Positions 52,408 through 64,000 of a DNA stretch of 64,000 nt are shown here, in pieces. The notes beneath the pieces were generated by a model. It ran no database searches. It was given only the letters and a program-made list of their open reading frames with translations, and was not told the DNA's origin. The translations under genes and the position numbers were made by a program. Source of the DNA: a virus; IMG/VR virus record IMGVR_UViG_3300022073_000094. One strand, written 5' to 3'. The number at the start of each line of letters is the position of its first letter. Within the stretch, counting starts at the first letter, position 1.

Positions 52408-52757
52408 GGGGTTGTTTATTGGATTCGACAGGGCACGAATCGTTCCATTCACAACTCGACTCGCTAAGTCGTAAACGCAAAACAGTTAAAAATAACTGAC
52501 GAAACTCAAGAATTACAAGTCGCGTAGTGTGACAACCTAAATTGATCTAAATAGTGATAGATCTTTTTAGGTTTCAACTTTTGTCACTATCGTTCATTGG
52601 CATACCCAAGGTACCGTGAATCGTAACACGTTGGCTATAATGTGTGAATAATTTGTATGTTTACATGCATTGTAGTAATTATACAAACATGCAAAATAGT
52701 TGTACTACAATTGAATGTGCAATGCTCTGGACAGGGGTTCGACTCCCCTCAACTCCA
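52408..52757 (+). ncRNA. ssrA: tmRNA; tag (A)DETQELQVA at 52498-52527
   Basis: 5' GGGGTTG...GGATTCGACAGGG, 3' GGACAGGGGTTCGACTCCCCTCAACTCCA, G3-U70, ATAACT resume signal. Confidence 0.95.
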
Positions 52758-52788: not shown

Positions 52789-53034
52789 ATGGCGGAAAAA
52801 AAGAAATCAGTTGCTGAATCAGCTTTACATTATGGATTAAAAAAGAAAGTAAGAGTCGTTTTTATTGATAATACATCAATTACAGGTCAACTTGACTTTG
52901 TGAATCGTTATGAATATGTCCTTAAAGATGTATCACGTAAAGTGAAGTCAAATGGTCAAATTAAGGATGAAAAATTTGATCATGAAGTTGTTGTATTAAA
53001 GGCATCAGTTAAATATCTAACTGTTGTTGAATAA
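52789..53034 (+). CDS. Hfq/Sm-like RNA-binding protein
   Basis: Sm1-like VRVVFIDNTSITGQLDFVNRYEYVL and Sm2-like VVLKASVKYL; 81 aa. Confidence 0.65.
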   Translation: MAEKKKSVAESALHYGLKKKVRVVFIDNTSITGQLDFVNRYEYVLKDVSRKVKSNGQIKDEKFDHEVVVLKASVKYLTVVE

Positions 53035-56805: not shown

Positions 56806-57345
56806 TTGAGTATGAGTAATATATATGAGAATTTAACTGAGCGACAAAGAGAAGGGACTAATGCAAGCGAGGTTGAAGAGATTGAGAAAGTTGTGAATAC
56901 ATATTTTGATAGTGAGCATGCGACTCGTGTGATTGAGAAAGTTGTAAAAGGCGTGAGTGCATATCGTTTAGGGCAATTGAGAACGATTGTGACAAACGGC
57001 TTAATTACAAATATGATCGGAAGACGTGCGCAGCAAGCATTTTATTTAAATATCGGAGAGATTGATGATATAGATGAGACATTTTATCGTGATGGTGATA
57101 AAGAGAATCGCATGAGAAACTGGGCAAAAGGCGCACATGATCATAAGAATTTGCATGAGCATGGTTATATCACAATTGATGGCAAAACACGACAAAAAGA
57201 TTATGCATTAAGTGCGTTATGTTATCGTGTTGCATTCTTCATCGAGTATTTAAAGCTTGATGAAGGCGAAGTGATTGTTGATGTTGACGATTGGAATAAA
57301 GCATATGAGAATTTTGCACATGACTTATACGAAGTGATGGGATAA
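56806..57345 (+). CDS. early-type hypothetical protein in a promoter-gene-terminator cassette
   Basis: family promoter 56746, terminator ~57355-57390. Confidence 0.8.
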   Translation: MSMSNIYENLTERQREGTNASEVEEIEKVVNTYFDSEHATRVIEKVVKGVSAYRLGQLRTIVTNGLITNMIGRRAQQAFYLNIGEIDDIDETFYRDGDKENRMRNWAKGAHDHKNLHEHGYITIDGKTRQKDYALSALCYRVAFFIEYLKLDEGEVIVDVDDWNKAYENFAHDLYEVMG

Positions 57346-57507: not shown

Positions 57508-57574
57508 AGCCCCCCTTTCAAGTACTTTATGAGGTCTGCAGGAGCAGACTTTATAGGTACACAGACAGGGGGCT
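57508..57574 (+). repeat. dispersed imperfect palindrome P5 with long complementary flanks
   Basis: CCCCCCTTTCAAGTACTTTATGAGGTCTGCAGGAGCAGACTTTATAGGTACACAGACAGGGGG. Confidence 0.85.
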
Positions 57575-57729
57575 TGCTTTATGCATTGTTTTATGCTCTA
57601 CACTCTCTTAGTTTCAGCCTTTTTTTAGTGTATATTTTAAGTATATTTTTATAAGAAAGATATTAGAGTATAAATCATAATTTATATGTGATAAAATAAT
57701 AATATAAAAGTAAGGAGGAATAGATAATT

Positions 57730-58365
57730 ATGGCAACACAACAAGACGTTAAGACTGTATTAGGAAAGTATTATGATGAAGACGCAAACTATGACATCCG
57801 CGTTCTTATAGATGCTAGCGGAATTTTATTTGATTTTGACGAATTAGAGTGTGATGAGGAATATGGAGAAGGCGGAGCAAGATTTACGTCACGTTTAGAG
57901 ATTAATGCAGATATATTTTTTGCTGAGTCATATTCTACATCAGAATTGTATCAGCCATTAGATAAAATTAAGAAGTTATCAATGTATAAAGAGCTTGTTG
58001 ATGAGTATGGCTTTGATGATGATGAGTATTTAAACGGATCAACATACAATGAAGCGCTTGAGGATTATATAAGTGATGTTAGAGTTAATAATGATCAATA
58101 CCTTGATATTATTTTGCAAGAAGATATGCAGCTTGACGAAAATGCATTAAAAGAGTTAGAAGAAGATGGTGAAACTCGTATTTACACTTTTGATGCTAAA
58201 ATTTTAAAAATTGAACCAAAAAATATCCCTTCAATTATAGAAGAGTTAGATGTAGTCGATGATATGTTAACTCAAGCTAAAGCAGAATATGAAGAGCTCT
58301 TTAAAATTCGTATTGCAGATGAAAGACTTGCGATTCATGACGTGACGATTGAGAAAGATCAATAA
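57730..58365 (+). CDS. very acidic early-type protein
   Basis: hand count about 56 D/E vs about 20 K/R in 211 aa; RBS AAGGAGG. Confidence 0.8.
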   Translation: MATQQDVKTVLGKYYDEDANYDIRVLIDASGILFDFDELECDEEYGEGGARFTSRLEINADIFFAESYSTSELYQPLDKIKKLSMYKELVDEYGFDDDEYLNGSTYNEALEDYISDVRVNNDQYLDIILQEDMQLDENALKELEEDGETRIYTFDAKILKIEPKNIPSIIEELDVVDDMLTQAKAEYEELFKIRIADERLAIHDVTIEKDQ

Positions 58366-58419
58366 TTGTCATTAATAGAGTTGTCCTCTACTCCATTATT
58401 GGACTAAAGGACTCATAAT

Positions 58420-58540
58420 AAAACGAAGAGAGCCTATCTCATGAGAAATGATAGGCTCTCTTTTAATGAAAAACATTTTAAAAAATATATATGAGAAAGA
58501 TTGGAAGTTTTATAATATTAATGCCTTGATTAATATTATA
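58420..58540 (-). ncRNA. candidate sRNA 1 (promoter 58546-58574, terminator hairpin 58428-58460)
   Basis: no RBS-led ORF; motifs AACTTCCAATCTT, TTTCTCAT, AAAATGTTTTTCATTAAAAG shared with sRNA 2. Confidence 0.6.
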
Positions 58541-58673
58541 TTATTATAATACCATAATACTAAAGCTATGTAAAGGGGTTATATTAAAAAAATTTAAATA
58601 AATATTTAGAGCTTGCTTATGTTTCAGTTAGAGCGAGATGAGATGCTTAAGTTAGAGTGAGCGAGGCGGTCAG

Positions 58674-58738
58674 AGTCCCCTATTAGAGGTCCTGAGTGGG
58701 TCTGCGCAGCAGACTTTGAGAGGACCTGATGAGGGGCT
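58674..58738 (+). repeat. dispersed imperfect palindrome P6
   Basis: CCCC..AGGTCCT..GGTCTGCGCAGCAGAC..AGGACCT..GGGG (compensatory GTAC to GTCC/GGAC change). Confidence 0.85.
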
Positions 58739-58984
58739 TAGCTTTATACTTTACACTCGTGTATTTTATGTATTATTCGTGCTCTCTCATTACAAAAGTT
58801 AGCTAATCGATCTACATTTACTCTCGCTTAACATCAGAGCTAATTTTTTTGTGTAATGAGCCTGATTACAAGTTGAAGTAACTGCATAAGATTTTAATAT
58901 TAACTGTATTCTTTAATGAATGAGATGAAAAAATATATCTTTATAAATGAAATGAATGATGATAATGATGAGTTACATAAATGA

Positions 58985-59545
58985 TGTTTTATTGACGTTG
59001 ACAGATTAACAGATAAAATGAATGTGTCGAGCATAAAAAGTGATCAAAAATTAAAAAACTAGACGCATACAAAATGATTTATTTATAACAGAGATTACTC
59101 TTATGCTGTTATAAAGATAAGATAAAAAAATAATTTGATATAATGTGACAGACAGATGACAGATAAAATGGGCTTTTTTATTTTTATATCTTTTGAGTTT
59201 AATTATATTAAACCGGCTGTTAGTTGAGAGTTTAATGATGGCTATCTGTCATCTGTCTGTCACATTATATTTTAGCTGAAACATTAAGCATACATAAGAC
59301 ACAACAGCATAACTAAGAGCTGAATTAAGCTAAAGACAGATATATCATTATAAACATTGTACTTATCTTTAATTTTGCTTTTTATTGTTTCATTTTAAGC
59401 TTTTGACAGATGAATTGACAGATGAATAGACAGATAAAAATTTAAAGCTCATCTGTCTATTATTTTTCTTAAAAATAGCAAATTTTATTGACAGATGAAT
59501 AGACGGATAAATCACATTTTTTAAGTCATTTGTCAATGTGAAAAT
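58985..59545. other. origin-like block C (iteron word GACAGAT/ATCTGTC)
   Basis: many GACAGAT copies, TTGACAGATGAAT repeats, perfect 26-bp inverted repeat 59140-59165/59243-59268; directly upstream of HTH-Rep2. Confidence 0.7.
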
Positions 59546-59620
59546 TGTTATTTACAAAAAGAGTTAAAAGATGTATAATTATATTTATCATAAATTATTA
59601 TAAAAAAGTGAGATGATGAT

Positions 59621-59824
59621 ATGATGACATTATATGAATTTATAAAATATGAAGGCTTGAAGAGAAATTTATCAATACGTGATTTAGCGACTGAAGCAGG
59701 TTTGACTTATCCGACTATTTATCGTTTAAAAAAGAAAGAGCCGAGTCGACAGACTTATTATAAACTTTCAAAGTTTTTAGATGTAACAATTGCTGAATTA
59801 TTAGAATATCCTATTTTAAAGTAA
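59621..59824 (+). CDS. XRE/Cro-C1 HTH regulator 2 (paralog of 30154..30378)
   Basis: LSIRDLATEAGLTYPTIYRL...PSRQTYYKLSKFLDV. Confidence 0.85.
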   Translation: MMTLYEFIKYEGLKRNLSIRDLATEAGLTYPTIYRLKKKEPSRQTYYKLSKFLDVTIAELLEYPILK

Positions 59825-60021
59825 TAAAAAAAAAATGATCCCAGACTATATTTAATAGCCTGGGATAGGATGTGATAAATTTAAAGTTAAAAACGTCAAT
59901 TAAGTCAATTAATTGAGCAAAGATTCGACTTATAAATTAATTATATAAAGCTTGTAATAAGATGTAAATATATTCGAATCGACAATTTACATTTAAGTTA
60001 AATTAAAAAAGTTAAGAGGAG

Positions 60022-61767
60022 ATGTTTAAAGTGACTCAGATGTCAATTAAAGAGTTAGAAGAGCGACTTATTCAAGAGAAGAATAATGTTAAGAAGAGAT
60101 ATCAATTGGGAGGTAGACCGAATCACCAATTGAATGAAAATGATTTATATCAGATTATAAAAGCTGCATGTGATATAGTGATTATTGATTATTCAGACGA
60201 ACAAGACTTGACAAATTATAGTTATGGAATATATAATCCTAGCACAAGAACTTATGTAAGAGAACGTAATTATTTAGTTTATTTGATACAATATATTATT
60301 AACAGTGAGACATTGTCACCTAATATATCATCTAAGAAAGCAATATCAGAAGTTGATGAAGCAATTAAATTTTCAAAAAATAAATTGACAAAAGCAAATA
60401 TTCCACCACAATACATTGTGAAATTTAAGAATTGTATATATGATTTAAAGCATAAGAAACGATATGAGTTTGATGATGAAGAAGTAAAAGATTATCATTT
60501 TTTAAATATGATTCGTTATCCTTATAAGGAGCTTGCTAATGTTAATCAAGAGATGTTAGAGATTGTTGACAGAGTAATGAATAGTTGGACAGATGGAAAT
60601 GAAGATATTGAAAAAACAATTAATCAAATCATATTTAGTGCAATAGAAGGGAATGGTCGAAATGTGCAAATTATTCTTAAGTCAGATGGAGGAGACGGCA
60701 AATCGACATTTTTAAGAACTTTACAAAAAATTGGTCATACTTCGTTAACACATCATTTAAATATTGATGAATATGGTGATGACAATGCACTTAATCAGAT
60801 TCAGCCAAGCACAAAATTAATTTTAGGAGATGATCTTGCTTCTAATTTTAAAGTCACGCATAAAATTTTATCACGACTTAAGACATTAGTTGATGGTGGG
60901 ATCTTAAATGTAAGTGAGAAATACATGCCAAATAAATTGATTCAGTCAAGTGCGTTGAAGATTCAAGCAACAAATACAGATGTTAAGTTTTATGAAAATA
61001 ACGATGCAATTAGAGATCGCATTTTGCTTATTATTTGGCCTCATCATAATTTTAGACAAAATCCAATAACTGACTTTAACTTAGACATTTTAACAGGCAA
61101 AGGGTGTAAGGCTGATGAGGATTTTATGACTGCATATATCGCAAGAGCGATTCATAAAACTGAGTATTTTGATCATTTTCATGTTACACAAGAAATGAGA
61201 GATGATATGCAAGAAATGCTTGATGATAATGATATAATGTCTCAATTTATGATTGAATTAGATGATTTAGATGTTCTTTCATATTCTCATATTCCATCAT
61301 TTGTACTTTACGAGCATTATAAGCAATGGTTAAATAATATAAATCCTGGCTCAAAGCCGATGAAAATGATTGATTTTACAAGAAAACTAAGAAAACAATT
61401 ATTAGATTATGGATATGATGATTCATCACGCTTATTATTATCACAGATTAAGAATAATCAATTTAATTTTAACATATTTGAAGATATGTACATTGATTTT
61501 CAAAAGAAAACGACAGTTTTTATCAACCATGACTTAACAATTGAAGGAAAACAAGAACAGCTTGAAAAAGATGCACAAGAATTATCAGCAGATGTTTTTC
61601 AATCTAAATATGATAGAAAACAGATCAAAGCTTATTTACATTATTTAAATGATGTGAATGGTCACAAACTTTTAAATCTTTTTCTTGATTCTAATACTGA
61701 ATATACACCTGATCAGATTCATGATATACCCTGTCATGAACTTGTAAGAATTGTTCAGTCTCAATAA
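60022..61767 (+). CDS. D5_N + SF3 helicase replication initiator, copy 2
   Basis: GGDGKST, LGDD, ATN; colinear with copy 1 (NENDL/I..ACDIV.IDYS, QPSTK, WPHH/YNFRQNP). Confidence 0.85.
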   Translation: MFKVTQMSIKELEERLIQEKNNVKKRYQLGGRPNHQLNENDLYQIIKAACDIVIIDYSDEQDLTNYSYGIYNPSTRTYVRERNYLVYLIQYIINSETLSPNISSKKAISEVDEAIKFSKNKLTKANIPPQYIVKFKNCIYDLKHKKRYEFDDEEVKDYHFLNMIRYPYKELANVNQEMLEIVDRVMNSWTDGNEDIEKTINQIIFSAIEGNGRNVQIILKSDGGDGKSTFLRTLQKIGHTSLTHHLNIDEYGDDNALNQIQPSTKLILGDDLASNFKVTHKILSRLKTLVDGGILNVSEKYMPNKLIQSSALKIQATNTDVKFYENNDAIRDRILLIIWPHHNFRQNPITDFNLDILTGKGCKADEDFMTAYIARAIHKTEYFDHFHVTQEMRDDMQEMLDDNDIMSQFMIELDDLDVLSYSHIPSFVLYEHYKQWLNNINPGSKPMKMIDFTRKLRKQLLDYGYDDSSRLLLSQIKNNQFNFNIFEDMYIDFQKKTTVFINHDLTIEGKQEQLEKDAQELSADVFQSKYDRKQIKAYLHYLNDVNGHKLLNLFLDSNTEYTPDQIHDIPCHELVRIVQSQ

Positions 61768-61866
61768 ACTTATTTAGATCATAGATCAGCGCTTAATAGA
61801 AGCTTGTCTCGGACTTAAAAGATCAAGTTAATATTAAATCACAACATGATATTTAATGCTTAATTA

Positions 61867-61933
61867 ACCCCCCTTCAAGTACTCTAAGTGGTCTGCGGAG
61901 CAGACTTTACAGGTACACAACAGAAGGGGGGCT
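61867..61933 (+). repeat. dispersed imperfect palindrome P7
   Basis: CCCCCCTTCAAGTACTCTAAGTGGTCTGCGGAGCAGACTTTACAGGTACAC..GGGGGG. Confidence 0.85.
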
Positions 61934-62042
61934 TGCTTTATGCATTGTTTTATACTCTACACTCTCTTAGCTTTAGCCTTTTTTTATTAAATATGAGCAT
62001 AAAAAAAGAGAGAGCTTGCGGCTCCCCCTTTTAAGCATTGAA

Positions 62043-62288
62043 TTAAGCGATTTGTTGCATTTCAGCTTTAAATTCCTTTGCATCATCGTCATCGAAATAA
62101 TTAATTTCGACCAAGCGATTAGCAAGCTGATTTTTGCTGCCATTATAGCGAATAAGCAATGTTGGGTTAGAATTATAATTGCGAGTGATGAATGATGCTT
62201 TGCAATGGCCAATCACAGCCTCAGCATCCTTCACAACCTCAGCATCAGTGCCTTCCACAGCCCAATCTAATTCGAATAATGTTTCCAT
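62043..62288 (-). CDS. 81-aa early-type protein METLFELDWAVEG...
   Basis: RBS GAGGTG, family promoter 62319-62347, terminator ~62000-62032. Confidence 0.8.
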   Translation of the reverse strand: METLFELDWAVEGTDAEVVKDAEAVIGHCKASFITRNYNSNPTLLIRYNGSKNQLANRLVEINYFDDDDAKEFKAEMQQIA

Positions 62289-62460
62289 ATTAATCACCTC
62301 ATATTTTATTATATTTATATAATACCATGATACTAAATCTATGTAAAGGGGTAAATGCATAATTTATTTAAAAATAATAATAAGCTGCATAAAAATATTA
62401 GCTTAAAATAATGCTTAAAAATATTAGCATAAACATAAAATAATAAATAATAATGCATAA

Positions 62461-62572
62461 TAAAAAGGAGCCTGAGGACTCCCTTTTAATGAAAAACATT
62501 TTAGAAATCATGAGAAATTTTTTATATAATAAGATTGGAAGTTTTTTTATAATCAATTCATTATTGATTATA
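62461..62572 (-). ncRNA. candidate sRNA 2 (promoter 62578-62606, terminator 62462-62487)
   Basis: paralog of sRNA 1, no RBS-led ORF. Confidence 0.6.
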
Positions 62573-62647
62573 TATTTATAATACCATAATACTAAATATA
62601 TGTAAAGGGGCTATATTAAATTTTTTTAAAAATAAATAGCATAATAT

Positions 62648-62768
62648 AAAAGGAGAGGGCCTATCTAAGGAGAAATAGATAGGCCTTAAAAATTATGAGA
62701 AATATTTTAAGAATTTCGAATAATTAATAAGTGAAAGGTGAGTCAATCCTTATTCCTTATTAATTATA
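62648..62768 (-). ncRNA. candidate sRNA 3 (promoter 62774-62802, terminator hairpin 62658-62686)
   Basis: terminator hairpin homologous to that of sRNA 1; contains anti-SD-like CTCACCTTTCAC and TTTCTCAT. Confidence 0.6.
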
Positions 62769-63030
62769 TTTATATTATACCATGGTACTAATAATATGTA
62801 AAGGGGTAAATTAAAAAAATATGATTGAGTTAGAGCGAGTGATGATGTTTGAGTCAGAACGAGATTATGCTTAATTGAGAGCGAGCGATAATGATTTAGT
62901 TAATCCCTTTTTAATTTATAATTTTATGAAGTGCACTAAGGACAAGAGCTCTTTTTTTTTTATTTAACGTATTTACTTAATATTAGTACTATGGTATTAT
63001 AATAATATAATAAAAAAAAGGTGGTAATGA

Positions 63031-63291
63031 ATGATGGCAGACGAAAAAATGACTGAGTATTATAATTTTGGTAGAGAAACAGAGTTATATAAATTATTGA
63101 GTGGGTTAAGTGAAGAAGAGAGAGAAGATTATGTTGATGGGTTTGACGAATTAGACGATGAGACTGAACAAAAAGTTGATTCATTTATTAAGCAATTTAT
63201 TAAATTAGTTTATACTAATAAAAATAATTTAATTGCTAAAGTGACTGCGATGACAGATCAACATATTGAGTTATGTGTAACTGAGTTATAA
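63031..63291 (+). CDS. small acidic early-type protein
   Basis: family promoter 62972, RBS AAGGTGG, terminator ~63298-63332. Confidence 0.8.
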   Translation: MMADEKMTEYYNFGRETELYKLLSGLSEEEREDYVDGFDELDDETEQKVDSFIKQFIKLVYTNKNNLIAKVTAMTDQHIELCVTEL

Positions 63292-63396
63292 TTTAAATAA
63301 GAGCTGTTCTTTAAATAGAGCAGCGTTTTTTTTGATATTAAATATAAGAAATAGTTTTAGTGTCTGAGTTTAAGTCAGAGCGAGACACAGCGAGTC

Positions 63397-63459
63397 AGCC
63401 CCCTTTCAAGTACTTTATGAGGTCTGCGCAGCAGACTTTACGAGTACACAACAGGGGCT
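63397..63459 (+). repeat. dispersed imperfect palindrome P8 with complementary flanks (AGAGCGAGA/TCTCGCTCT)
   Basis: near-identical to P5. Confidence 0.85.
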
Positions 63460-63878
63460 TGCTCTATGTCTCATCTCGCTCTACTTCTTGCTTTACACTC
63501 TCTCTCTCTTTCAGCTTTAGCCCTTTTTTAGTATATATTTTAAATATATTTTTATAATAAAATGAGGCTTGACTAATGCATAAAAAAAAGCATCCCTTTC
63601 ATAATTGATTATATAAAAGGGATTACTTAGATTTGTAGTTGATTATTATTACACAATTTACATTCAAAGTATAATTATTTTATCATGCTGTGAATGTAAT
63701 GTACACAAACATCTTCGCACTCTCATCTCAGCTTTTATCATCGCTGAAATCGACCGTAAGTGCGTAGAGATTGTTCTCGTTTGAGTTAAATTGATAAGCA
63801 AATAAATAGCTGTATACAGCGTCGATAAGAAATGTTAAAATGATATTAAATTTAGAGATAAAAGGAGCTATGTGAAGT

Positions 63879-64000
63879 ATGGAAGAACAATTACAAAATA
63901 TTCAAGAAGCGTTAGTGAATCGTTTTGACGCAACTAAAGAGGTTGCAAAAGCAATTAAAGAGGCGTTAGAATCATTAGCAGATCAAGCACCTCAATTAAT
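63879..64000 (+). CDS. partial CDS MEEQLQNIQEALVNRFDATKEVAK..., runs off the window
   Basis: RBS AAAGGAG, open to the window end. Confidence 0.65.
   Translation, partial: MEEQLQNIQEALVNRFDATKEVAKAIKEALESLADQAPQL

What the first reader, a model, noticed from the sequence alone, without database searches (positions are those of the whole stretch)
58420..62802. Three paralogous promoter-sRNA-terminator units carrying anti-start-codon and anti-SD sequences
Seen: three minus-strand family promoters (58546, 62578, 62774), each preceded by CCCC, fire into 110-120 nt with no RBS-led ORF and end at intrinsic terminators. Units 1 and 2 share AACTTCCAATCTT and AAAATGTTTTTCATTAAAAG; units 1 and 3 share the GCCTATC..TTTCTC.T.AGATAGGC hairpin; all carry TTTCTCAT. 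These words are reverse complements of initiation regions (ATGAAAAACATTTT, ATGAGAAA, GTGAAAGGTGAG). sRNA 3 could pair ~17 bp, with a 2-nt bulge and one mismatch, over the RBS of ORF 36924 (AGTGAAAGGATTGAATCAAT). Inference: an early viral sRNA family that silences translation of host or viral mRNAs.
Basis: partly seen in the sequence, partly recalled or inferred. Interest (0 to 1): 0.75.

Follow-up and report, generated by a model that had tools for sequence, protein, structure and literature searches.

The report
Conserved ORF-less early RNA genes
Three short gene-like units in a large phage-like DNA each have a strong promoter and a stop signal but no protein gene; they are kept in related genomes and are probably small RNAs, but their proposed targets are no better than chance.

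Summary
A family promoter (CCCC, TTTACA, 17 nt, TG-extended -10) occurs four times on the minus strand. One copy drives an 81-aa gene. Three fire into about 120 nt without a credible ORF and end in hairpin terminators.

Related metagenome contigs carry the same units at the same locus, between a convergent 211-aa gene and a divergent 86-aa gene. Unit 3 is 92.5-100% identical across relatives; the flanking genes are 86-93%.

The unit 1/2 type keeps two nearly invariant single-stranded boxes, A (AAAACTTCCAATCTT) and B (AAAATGTTTTTCATTA). They lie between a 5' hairpin at the predicted RNA start and the terminator. Both hairpins covary (6 of 19 pairs). No short reading frame on either strand is conserved. 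These are most likely non-coding early RNAs.

The proposed mechanism is not supported:
- Pairing with the window's 72 start regions is no better than for random genomic 120-mers.
- ORF 36924 ranks 20th of 72, and its 9-nt core lies mostly inside a stable hairpin.
- Box order is wrong for covering one SD and its start codon together.
- Nothing ties the element to staphylococci.

No Rfam family matches. Targets and expression remain untested. The scan has noted ORF-less early phage RNAs on other DNA, but no look-alike of this family.

The parts
58546..58578 (-). Unit 1 family promoter: CCCC, -35 TTTACA, 17-nt spacer, TG-extended -10 TATTAT
58513..58538 (-). Unit 1 5' hairpin, 10-bp arms with loop CAAGGC, starting within a few nt of the predicted +1
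58497..58511 (-). Unit 1 box A (AAAACTTCCAATCTT), predicted unpaired and invariant in 8 of 8 unit 1/2-type copies
58464..58479 (-). Unit 1 box B (AAAATGTTTTTCATTA), nearly invariant
58415..58460 (-). Unit 1 terminator: 11-bp stem, 11-nt loop and U-rich tail. It is also the hairpin directly behind the convergent 211-aa gene (57730-58365, + strand)
62578..62610 (-). Unit 2 family promoter
62549..62571 (-). Unit 2 5' hairpin, 9-bp arms with loop AATGA
62531..62545 (-). Unit 2 box A
62487..62502 (-). Unit 2 box B
62457..62487 (-). Unit 2 terminator, with a U-G and a G-U pair that are wobbles only on the minus-strand RNA, followed by a U tail
62774..62806 (-). Unit 3 family promoter (-10 TATAAT, 11 of 12 consensus positions)
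62720..62767 (-). Unit 3 48-nt 5' hairpin holding two AAGGA words and CUCACCUUUCAC
62691..62708 (-). Unit 3 box B-like segment (AAAATATTTCTCATAATT) directly before the terminator
62646..62685 (-). Unit 3 terminator hairpin and CTCTCCTTTTAT tail
62004..62351 (-). Fourth family promoter (62319-62351), the 81-aa ORF (62043-62288) and its terminator (62004-32). This is the protein-coding sister cassette between units 2 and 1

Best explanation
The three units are genes for small non-coding RNAs of about 115-125 nt. They belong to a large, low-GC (26%), phage-like element known only from metagenomes.

Each unit is probably transcribed on its own by host sigma-A-type RNA polymerase from a near-consensus promoter with an extended -10. 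That is inferred from sequence and suggests early expression.

The RNA would start at or just before a perfect hairpin and end at an intrinsic terminator. Ends of this kind protect RNAs from 5' and 3' decay in Firmicutes-type hosts.

Between the hairpins lies a 45-60-nt unpaired A/U-rich segment. It carries nearly invariant boxes: A (CUUCCAAUCUU) and B (AAAAUGUUUUUCAUUA) in the unit 1/2 type, and a box B-like UUUCUCAUAAUU in unit 3. I take these boxes to be the working part. They most likely base-pair with, or are bound by, a partner that lies outside this window: the rest of the element, the host, or a protein.

Shown here: the anatomy, the lack of a conserved ORF, the conservation and the covariation. 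Inferred: transcription, timing, action in trans and any target.
For: (1) Four exact family promoters against 0 expected. Three are followed by folds with z-scores of -3.5 to -6.2 and the plan 5' hairpin, open middle, terminator.

(2) Relatives reached through the neighbouring 81-aa and 211-aa proteins carry the same units at the same locus. L052 has u3-u2-81aa-u1 facing the 211-aa gene. L051 and L055 have u3-u1 facing it. L038 has u3-81aa-u1 facing it.

(3) Unit 3 is 92.5-100% identical where the 211-aa and 81-aa genes are 85.6-93.2% identical. It exceeds its neighbours in L052, L055 and L051. Identity ends just after the terminator.

(4) In 8 distinct unit 1/2-type copies box A is invariant. 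Box B has one substitution and one 1-nt deletion. The spacer between them varies from 15 to 28 nt.

(5) Hairpins covary. Six of 19 pairs changed on both sides. 90.5% of cells are paired, against 34-47% when partners are slid. The covariation score is 0.269 against 0.140 in shuffles, reached by 0 of 500. Both arms of the 5' stem also share a symmetric 2-nt deletion.

(6) No frame is conserved:
- Minus strand: MFFIKRE... runs 26, 33 or 10 codons, and its ATG becomes ATA in L052_u1.
- Plus strand: MKNIL... stops after 4 codons (L055) or 8 (L038) and is frameshifted in unit 2.
- None has a usable SD.

(7) More distant relatives (L056, L049; the 211-aa protein of L056 is 63% identical) keep the plan in a longer, 206-216-nt unit. 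They have a 5' hairpin at +1, CUUCCAACCUU or CUCCCAACCUU, AAAUAUUUUCAUAAUU, and a unit 3-like terminator with compensatory changes.

(8) Unit 1-type copies always point into a convergent gene, so nothing downstream could be the product.

(9) Featureless promoter-to-terminator transcripts are documented in phages. About 25% of transcription units in six Pseudomonas phages are of this kind, and some were confirmed by northern blot (PMC10914365).
Against: No discrete transcript has been shown. The only hit in an RNA library is one 234-nt metatranscriptome contig (62506-62737). It spans the unit 3 terminator and the unit 2 promoter, so it could be read-through or DNA.

No target was found. The boxes and the whole RNAs pair no better with the window than shuffled or random genomic controls do.

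The high identity of unit 3 could reflect recent exchange of a cassette rather than selection, because the region is mosaic.

Perfect palindromes can also be maintained at the DNA level. The terminator loop of unit 1 is inverted in L038, so that loop is not under strand-specific constraint.

Only 5 to 8 distinct sequences support each alignment.
Confidence: 0.5

Rival explanations
1. Mobile regulatory cassettes, or 'empty morons'. The repeated promoter-plus-terminator modules mainly act as recombination and insulation points for shuffling small early genes and whole modules, as PeSLs do in T4-type phages. The ORF-less interiors are leftovers, and the RNAs have no function in trans.
For: The locus is mosaic. 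The 81-aa gene and a complete ori-HTH-Rep module lie between duplicated units in the window but are absent in L051 and L055. The Rep module is also absent in L038 and L052. A contig in run X8 joins 58511 to 62307, skipping 3795 nt. 5' hairpins, spacers and terminators occur in different combinations among copies. PeSLs are described as strong early promoters with stem-loop terminators that mediate such shuffling (PMC2839356).
Against: PeSLs are compact and are followed directly by an SD and a start codon. Here about 120 nt of interior is kept. It holds two nearly invariant boxes amid variable spacers, and a unit 3 more conserved than the neighbouring genes. The plan persists in relatives with only 63% protein identity.
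Confidence: 0.18
2. Cis-acting convergent transcription or 3'-overlap antisense control (unit 1 type only). The strong promoter fires against the end of the 211-aa gene operon. The two RNAs share a fully complementary terminator hairpin, so unit 1 would block or destabilise read-through from that operon.
For: In all seven loci where the flank is available, a unit of this family sits tail-to-tail with the 211-aa gene homologue and shares the hairpin. In L045-type copies the plus-strand side of the hairpin has no T tract, so plus-strand read-through is plausible. Loop inversion (L038) is neutral for a cis-antisense pair.
Against: This does not explain units 2 and 3, which are not next to that gene. 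It also does not explain invariant boxes A and B, which lie beyond the 3' end of the convergent mRNA.
Confidence: 0.12
3. The units encode very small proteins, or form a type I toxin-antitoxin-like pair. Candidates are plus-strand MKNIL...KDWKFY... (22-30 aa), minus-strand MFFIKRE..., or a 17-aa TTG-started frame in the unit 3 hairpin.
For: The plus-strand frame is open in 5 of 8 copies with the same K-D-W-K-F reading. One box B change is synonymous in it (AAC to AAT). Spacer types of 17 and 23 nt differ by two codons. Unit 2-type copies have GAGGA or GAGGG 10-11 nt before that ATG. AAGGA lies 7 nt before the unit 3 TTG.
Against: The plus-strand frame has stops after 4 and 8 codons in L055 and L038 and a frameshift in window unit 2. 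Unit 1-type copies have no SD, and no plus-strand promoter exists other than read-through of a terminator. The peptide is not hydrophobic like type I toxins. Compensatory stem changes alter two residues at a time. The minus-strand ATG is lost in L052_u1. A 1-nt indel changes the C-terminus of the unit 3 frame in 2 of 5 copies, and its start is buried in a stable hairpin. At 26% GC an open 27-codon frame has roughly a 9% chance (my estimate).
Confidence: 0.07
4. The RNAs work by binding a protein or the ribosome rather than an mRNA. The purine-rich SD-like words in the 5' hairpin loops (AAGGA, GAGGA, CAGGA) and the pyrimidine boxes would act as a decoy, a sponge or a STAB-SD-type stabiliser.
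For: SD-like words recur in 5' hairpin loops of most copies, and twice in unit 3. SD-like 5' stabilisers, including one from a Bacillus phage, are known in Firmicutes (references 106 and 179 in PMC3997798). No mRNA target was found.
Against: The loop words are not invariant (AATGA in unit 2, TAAGC in L045). No partner protein is identified. The neighbouring 81-aa protein proposed as Hfq-like has no LSM/Hfq match in Pfam.
Confidence: 0.1
5. Leader-plus-terminator units awaiting an antiterminator, like lambda PR'-tR' and its 6S RNA. The short RNA would be the default product, and read-through would be the regulated event.
For: All family promoters are followed by a -10-like ATATAAT word in the initially transcribed region, the kind of element that causes sigma-dependent pausing. 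Units 3 and 2 lie upstream of the 81-aa gene.
Against: Unit 1-type copies, and the u3-u1 tandems of L051 and L055, run into a convergent gene, so there is nothing to read into. The 81-aa gene has its own full promoter.
Confidence: 0.03

Closest known systems
Phage-encoded candidate ncRNAs defined as featureless promoter-to-terminator transcription units (ONT-cappable-seq of Pseudomonas phages, e.g. phiKZ 71-nt and 141-nt species; PMC10914365)
   Same: Short units of under 250 nt, bounded by a phage promoter and a terminator, with no annotated feature. They are abundant in large phages and their function is unknown.
   Different: Those were found by transcript mapping and mostly sit in 5' UTRs of genes as premature-termination products. 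The units here are only predicted from sequence. They are stand-alone (unit 1 faces a convergent gene), paralogous, and carry conserved boxes. There is no sequence relation.
Firmicute base-pairing sRNAs with pyrimidine-rich unpaired seeds (staphylococcal RsaE and RNAIII type; my recollection of the literature, not tested here)
   Same: Own promoter, Rho-independent terminator, and an unpaired C/U-containing motif (CUUCC) that could pair with purine-rich ribosome-binding sites.
   Different: No Rfam match. The seed is CUUCC, not UCCC. No target was found. The family is carried by a mobile element, in 2-3 paralogues with mosaic hairpins.
PeSL promoter-early stem-loop cassettes of T4-type phages (PMC2839356, PMC4122927)
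   Same: A repeated strong sigma-70-type early promoter associated with terminator stem-loops, concentrated in a plastic region of small genes. Differences between relatives map to these repeats.
   Different: PeSLs are compact and lead straight into an SD and an ORF. Here three copies lead into about 120 nt of conserved ORF-less sequence. The host group and the sequence are unrelated.
Classical phage regulatory RNAs: lambda OOP, P22 Sar, P1/P7 C4, P4 CI (my recollection of the literature)
   Same: Small, highly structured, phage-encoded RNAs that end at a terminator and act by pairing near ribosome-binding sites.
   Different: Those are cis-encoded or have obvious complementary sites in the same immunity region. 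No complementary site exists within this 64-kb window.
Convergent 3'-overlapping antisense pairs of Firmicute prophages (SR4/bsrG, RatA/txpA; my recollection of the literature)
   Same: Unit 1 and the 211-aa gene converge on one shared hairpin, so their 3' ends are complementary.
   Different: The partner is a 211-aa protein of unknown function, not a small toxin. The overlap is only the hairpin. Units 2 and 3 have no such partner.

Membership tests
Trans-acting base-pairing sRNA | Independent promoter and intrinsic terminator bounding a short transcript | tested here: met
   Met at sequence level only. No transcript mapping.
Trans-acting base-pairing sRNA | No conserved reading frame | tested here: met
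   Frames on both strands are broken or shifted among 8 copies.
Trans-acting base-pairing sRNA | Conserved, unpaired seed segment | tested here: met
   Box A is invariant and box B nearly so, and both are predicted unpaired.
Trans-acting base-pairing sRNA | Complementary target site better than chance, ideally conserved | tested here: not met
   Tested within the 64-kb window only. The rest of the element and the host are not available.
Trans-acting base-pairing sRNA | Discrete stable transcript | not testable with these tools
   Only assembled contigs could be laid.
Any Rfam 15 family | Covariance-model score at or above the gathering threshold | tested here: not met
   No match over the units at gathering score. 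Best permissive matches score 21-27 bits against thresholds of 44-110.
PeSL-type mobile regulatory cassette | Repeated strong early promoter with associated terminator stem-loop in a plastic region | tested here: inconclusive
   Promoters are repeated, and terminators lie 40-110 nt upstream of the next promoter rather than overlapping it.
PeSL-type mobile regulatory cassette | Followed directly by the SD and start codon of a small gene | tested here: not met
   True only for the 62319-62351 copy. Units 1-3 have no SD-led ORF.
PeSL-type mobile regulatory cassette | Insertions, deletions and replacements between relatives map to the repeats | tested here: met
   Synteny comparison and the joint 58511 to 62307 in a relative.
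Type I toxin-antitoxin | Conserved small hydrophobic toxin ORF overlapped by an antisense RNA | tested here: not met
   The candidate peptides are not conserved. The one hydrophobic frame (33 aa, unit 2) runs through the terminator and has no counterpart in other copies.
Antitermination leader (lambda PR'-tR' type) | A co-oriented operon downstream of the terminator | tested here: not met
   Unit 1-type copies face a convergent gene in all relatives.
Plasmid-type countertranscript (ctRNA) of the adjacent Rep module | Antisense overlap with the rep mRNA leader | tested here: not met
   Unit 1 lies about 1 kb from the HTH/Rep leader and is present in relatives that lack the module.

The most novel reading that the evidence does not exclude
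The family would be a phage tool for general shut-off of translation by RNA. Box B is complementary to AUGAAAAAC-type starts; 14 of the window's 72 genes begin ATGAAA. Box A (CUUCC) can pair with GGAGG or GGAAG ribosome-binding sites through a wobble pair. Abundant, doubly capped early RNAs would then occupy many host initiation regions at once, or the 30S subunit through their SD-like loops. My tests exclude a specific target inside this window. They do not exclude a diffuse effect, a host target, or a target elsewhere in the element.
Probability: 0.1. Interest if true: 0.7.

Novelty: new member of a known kind. Interest (0 to 1): 0.4.

Why it matters
Small RNAs of virulent or large phages are poorly known, especially outside E. 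coli and Pseudomonas. Here is a compact, sequence-defined locus of two or three paralogous candidate RNA genes. It has clear conserved boxes, covarying hairpins and natural variants in at least seven related contigs. That gives the material needed to design probes, box mutants and target searches once a host or a full genome is known.

The locus also shows how whole gene cassettes, including a replication module, have been inserted between duplicated copies. That bears on how such elements are assembled.

If the RNAs prove inert, the locus would instead be a Gram-positive-style counterpart of the PeSL shuffling cassettes of T4-type phages.

Tried and rejected
Searches for relatives:
- Megablast and blastn of 58200-64000, and tblastn of the 581-aa and 81-aa proteins, against GenBank phages gave no match.
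- The promoter pattern in IMG/VR gave 0 hits.
- The search for related loci with the 581-aa protein found none.
- The promoter pattern in metagenome and genome collections gave 37 single hits. Only L006 and L009 are real relatives, and their family promoters lead into ORFs.
- No whole genome is held for this window, and an exact look-up of the 581-aa protein found nothing.

Staphylococcal link: the 213-kb Staphylococcus phage record with the best RNR match has no family promoter.

Rfam: nothing at the gathering threshold or at permissive thresholds.

Targets:
- Duplex energies against 72 start regions were only slightly better than mononucleotide shuffles and were within the range of random genomic 120-mers.
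- The longest perfect complement is a 14-mer of unit 1 with codons 3-7 of ORF 56812-57345. It is ATAT-rich, does not extend, and lies in the variable spacer.
- Box-only scans of the whole window were no better than shuffles.
- Two earlier versions of these scripts timed out.

Read laying: contigs of four runs show near-identical copies of the unit 3-unit 2 stretch in other samples, but they cannot show transcript ends or levels. Stretches without cover mean nothing.

Ideas rejected:
- Hfq partner: the 81-aa protein at 52789-53034 has no LSM/Hfq hit in Pfam.
- Primer RNA for the neighbouring origin: unit 1 transcribes away from it.
- ctRNA of the Rep module: no overlap, and the unit is present without the module.

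Full report
CONTEXT

The window is 26% G+C. It carries ribonucleotide reductase, TelA, thymidylate kinase, a TnpB, two DUF5906 primase/helicase-type proteins, six tRNAs and a tmRNA. No whole genome is held for it.

The run index places it in subsurface metagenome samples, with near-identical pieces in at least a dozen other studies. The best GenBank relative is a 213-kb unverified Staphylococcus phage record, at 75% protein identity for RNR only. That record has none of the promoters discussed here. The host is therefore unknown, and 'staphylococcal' is an assumption.

THE OBSERVATION

The promoter word CCCC-TTTACATA-n2-TTTAGTA-n2-ATGGTAT occurs four times, all on the minus strand: 58549-58578, 62322-62351, 62581-62610 and 62777-62806. 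Zero are expected. A relaxed form (TTTACA, 14 nt, TGnTATnAT) adds three copies elsewhere.

The copy at 62319-62351, the three extra copies, and those in relatives L006 and L009 lead into SD-led ORFs. The other three copies lead into about 120 nt without one.

TTTCTCAT is at chance in the window as a whole, but four of its nine copies fall within the roughly 360 nt of the units.

Each unit folds as a perfect hairpin beginning within a few nucleotides of the predicted +1, then a 45-60-nt open A/U-rich segment, then a terminator hairpin. The z-scores are -6.2, -3.5 and -5.3.

RELATIVES

DNA searches failed. Homologues of the neighbouring 81-aa protein (69-86% identity) and 211-aa protein (63-90%) led to contigs with the same locus. 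Reading them gives these arrangements, where the 211-aa gene converges on the last unit:
- L051 and L055: 86-aa gene (divergent), u3, u1, 211-aa gene.
- L038: u3, 81-aa gene, u1, 211-aa gene.
- L052: u3, u2, 81-aa gene, u1, 211-aa gene.
- This window: u3, u2, 81-aa gene, [palindrome, Rep, HTH, ori, palindrome], u1, 211-aa gene.

A contig of run X8 joins 58511 to 62307, which is the same layout without the module. The RNA locus is therefore ancestral. Cassettes have been inserted between duplicated copies of the unit 1/2 type.

Two more distant contigs carry a single longer unit of 206-216 nt with the same plan and recognisable boxes. They are L056, whose 211-aa protein is 63% identical, and L049.

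CODING OR NOT

Minus-strand frame: the frame starting in box B (MFFIKRE...) is 26, 33 or 10 codons long. It has no SD, and it loses its ATG in L052_u1.

Plus-strand frame: MKNIL...KDWKFY... is open in five of eight copies. It stops after 4 or 8 codons in L055 and L038 and is shifted in window unit 2. It has no SD in unit 1-type copies and no promoter of its own.

Compensatory changes in the 5' stem would alter two residues at a time. A 17-codon TTG frame in unit 3 is buried in a hairpin of about -15 kcal/mol, and a 1-nt indel changes its end in two of five copies. I conclude that coding is unlikely, at about 7%.

CONSERVATION AND STRUCTURE

Unit 3 is 100%, 96.6%, 95.8% and 92.5% identical to its homologues in L052, L051, L055 and L038. 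The 211-aa gene is 85.6%, 91.4%, 85.6% and 93.2% identical in the same four contigs. The 81-aa gene is 92.7% identical in L052 and 88.2% in L038. Similarity ends right after the terminator.

Unit 1/2-type copies are only 72-85% identical overall. Box A (15 nt) is invariant in eight distinct copies, and box B (16 nt) has one substitution and one deletion. The spacer between them varies from 15 to 28 nt.

On alignment A4, six of 19 pairs changed on both sides. 90.5% of cells pair, against 34-47% with slid partners. No shuffle out of 500 reached the observed covariation score. The 5' stem exists in five sequence versions, all perfectly paired, including a symmetric 2-nt deletion in both arms.

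The unit 3 hairpins show one compensatory pair in L051, and further ones appear in the L049 terminator. In window unit 2 a U-G and a G-U pair exist only on the minus-strand RNA. That is a small hint that selection acts on that RNA.

Against strand-specific selection, the unit 1 terminator loop is inverted in L038.

THE PROPOSED MECHANISM

I called 72 start regions in the window and compared each RNA with them. Minimum and top-five duplex energies were slightly better than mononucleotide shuffles. They were matched or beaten by random 120-mers of the same window:
- Minimum energy: 7, 17 and 4 of 60 random 120-mers for units 1, 2 and 3.
- Top-five mean: 6, 9 and 9 of 60.

ORF 36924 ranks 20th of 72 for unit 3, at -18.3 kcal/mol. 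Its perfect core is 9 nt. Random 120-mers have on average 7 start regions with a 9-nt match. Seven of those nine bases are paired in the unit 3 5' hairpin.

Patterns complementary to box B and box A occur 19 and 7 times with up to three mismatches, against 18.2 and 10.3 expected. Energy scans of the boxes over the whole window give -14.4, -12.8 and -17.7 kcal/mol. These lie inside the ranges of shuffled boxes.

A 14-nt match of unit 1 to codons 3-7 of ORF 56812-57345 is ATAT-rich, does not extend, and lies in the non-conserved spacer.

There is also a geometric problem. To cover an SD and its AUG together, an antisense RNA must read 5'-CAU...CCUCC-3'. Here the pyrimidine box is 5' of the CAU box. 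Only unit 2-type copies have UCCUC 3' of CAU, and that lies in the terminator stem.

It is met for targets inside this window. Targets elsewhere remain possible.

WHAT IT MOST LIKELY IS

Taken together these are probably genes for stable non-coding early RNAs whose working parts are the invariant open boxes. I put functional RNA at about 0.5. Within that, translational repression by pairing is about 0.2.

Hairpins at the 5' end and SD-like purine words are known RNA stabilisers in Firmicutes, one of them from a Bacillus phage (references cited in PMC3997798). Featureless promoter-to-terminator RNAs are common in large phages (PMC10914365).

The main rival is that the units are chiefly shuffling and insulation cassettes like the PeSLs of T4-type phages (PMC2839356). 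The mosaic synteny fits that rival; the conserved interior does not.

For unit 1 alone, the invariable tail-to-tail position against the 211-aa gene, with a shared hairpin, makes a cis role in blocking or destabilising read-through a fair alternative.

An antitermination leader is unlikely, because unit 1-type copies run into a convergent gene. So is a countertranscript of the Rep module, because the unit is present in relatives without the module.

NOVELTY

No Rfam family matches, and no look-alike was noted before in this scan. The same kind of object has been noted on other genomes. I rate it a new member of a known kind, of moderate interest. It is a well-delimited candidate family with natural variants, but expression and targets are untested.

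Noticed in passing
window 57508-57590, 58674-58740, 61867-61933, 63397-63460; also L042, L044, L045, L055, L056: Imperfect palindromes of about 65 bp (C-run ... GGTCTGC-GnA-GCAGAC ... G-run) lie 40-110 bp upstream of family promoters. They bracket the inserted ori-HTH-Rep module. In relatives the same palindrome type directly precedes the promoter of the 81-aa gene or of unit 3. Several unrelated contigs in run X24 also carry it. It looks like a cassette-boundary element.
   Followed up: partly
window 58985-61933 compared with L038, L051, L052, L055: The whole ori-HTH-Rep (DUF5906) module is an insertion relative to four related contigs. L038 carries at least four DUF5906 genes, three of them with an adjacent small HTH gene. 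Multiple replication modules therefore seem typical of this group.
   Followed up: partly
window 63592-63705 (-): Another ORF-less stretch. A promoter-like site (TGTACA, 17 nt, TAAAAT with TG) is followed about 55 nt later by a 12-bp hairpin and eight T. This could be a fourth small unit of about 85 nt with a different promoter.
   Followed up: no
window 52789-53034 (+): The 81-aa protein behind the tmRNA, proposed earlier as Hfq/Sm-like, has no LSM/Hfq match in Pfam. Its best hit is an unrelated coiled-coil family at E 0.028.
   Followed up: partly
all family promoters (window and L038-L056): A second -10-like word, ATATAAT, sits 5-8 nt after the -10 in every copy, ORF-led or not. With TTAGTA 17 nt upstream it could be an overlapping second promoter or a sigma-dependent pause element. 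If it is the true -10, transcripts would start inside the 5' hairpins.
   Followed up: no
L038 9391-9427 compared with window 58428-58460: The 11-nt loop of the unit 1 terminator is exactly inverted between the two genomes while the stem is unchanged. This is a hairpin flip, presumably by recombination between the arms.
   Followed up: partly
window 52408-52757 (+): The element-encoded tmRNA has an unusual predicted tag, DETQELQVA.
   Followed up: no
window 62043-62288 (-), 63031-63291 (+): The two small proteins under family-type promoters next to the RNA units are strongly acidic (runs of D and E). They have no Pfam or PHROG match.
   Followed up: no
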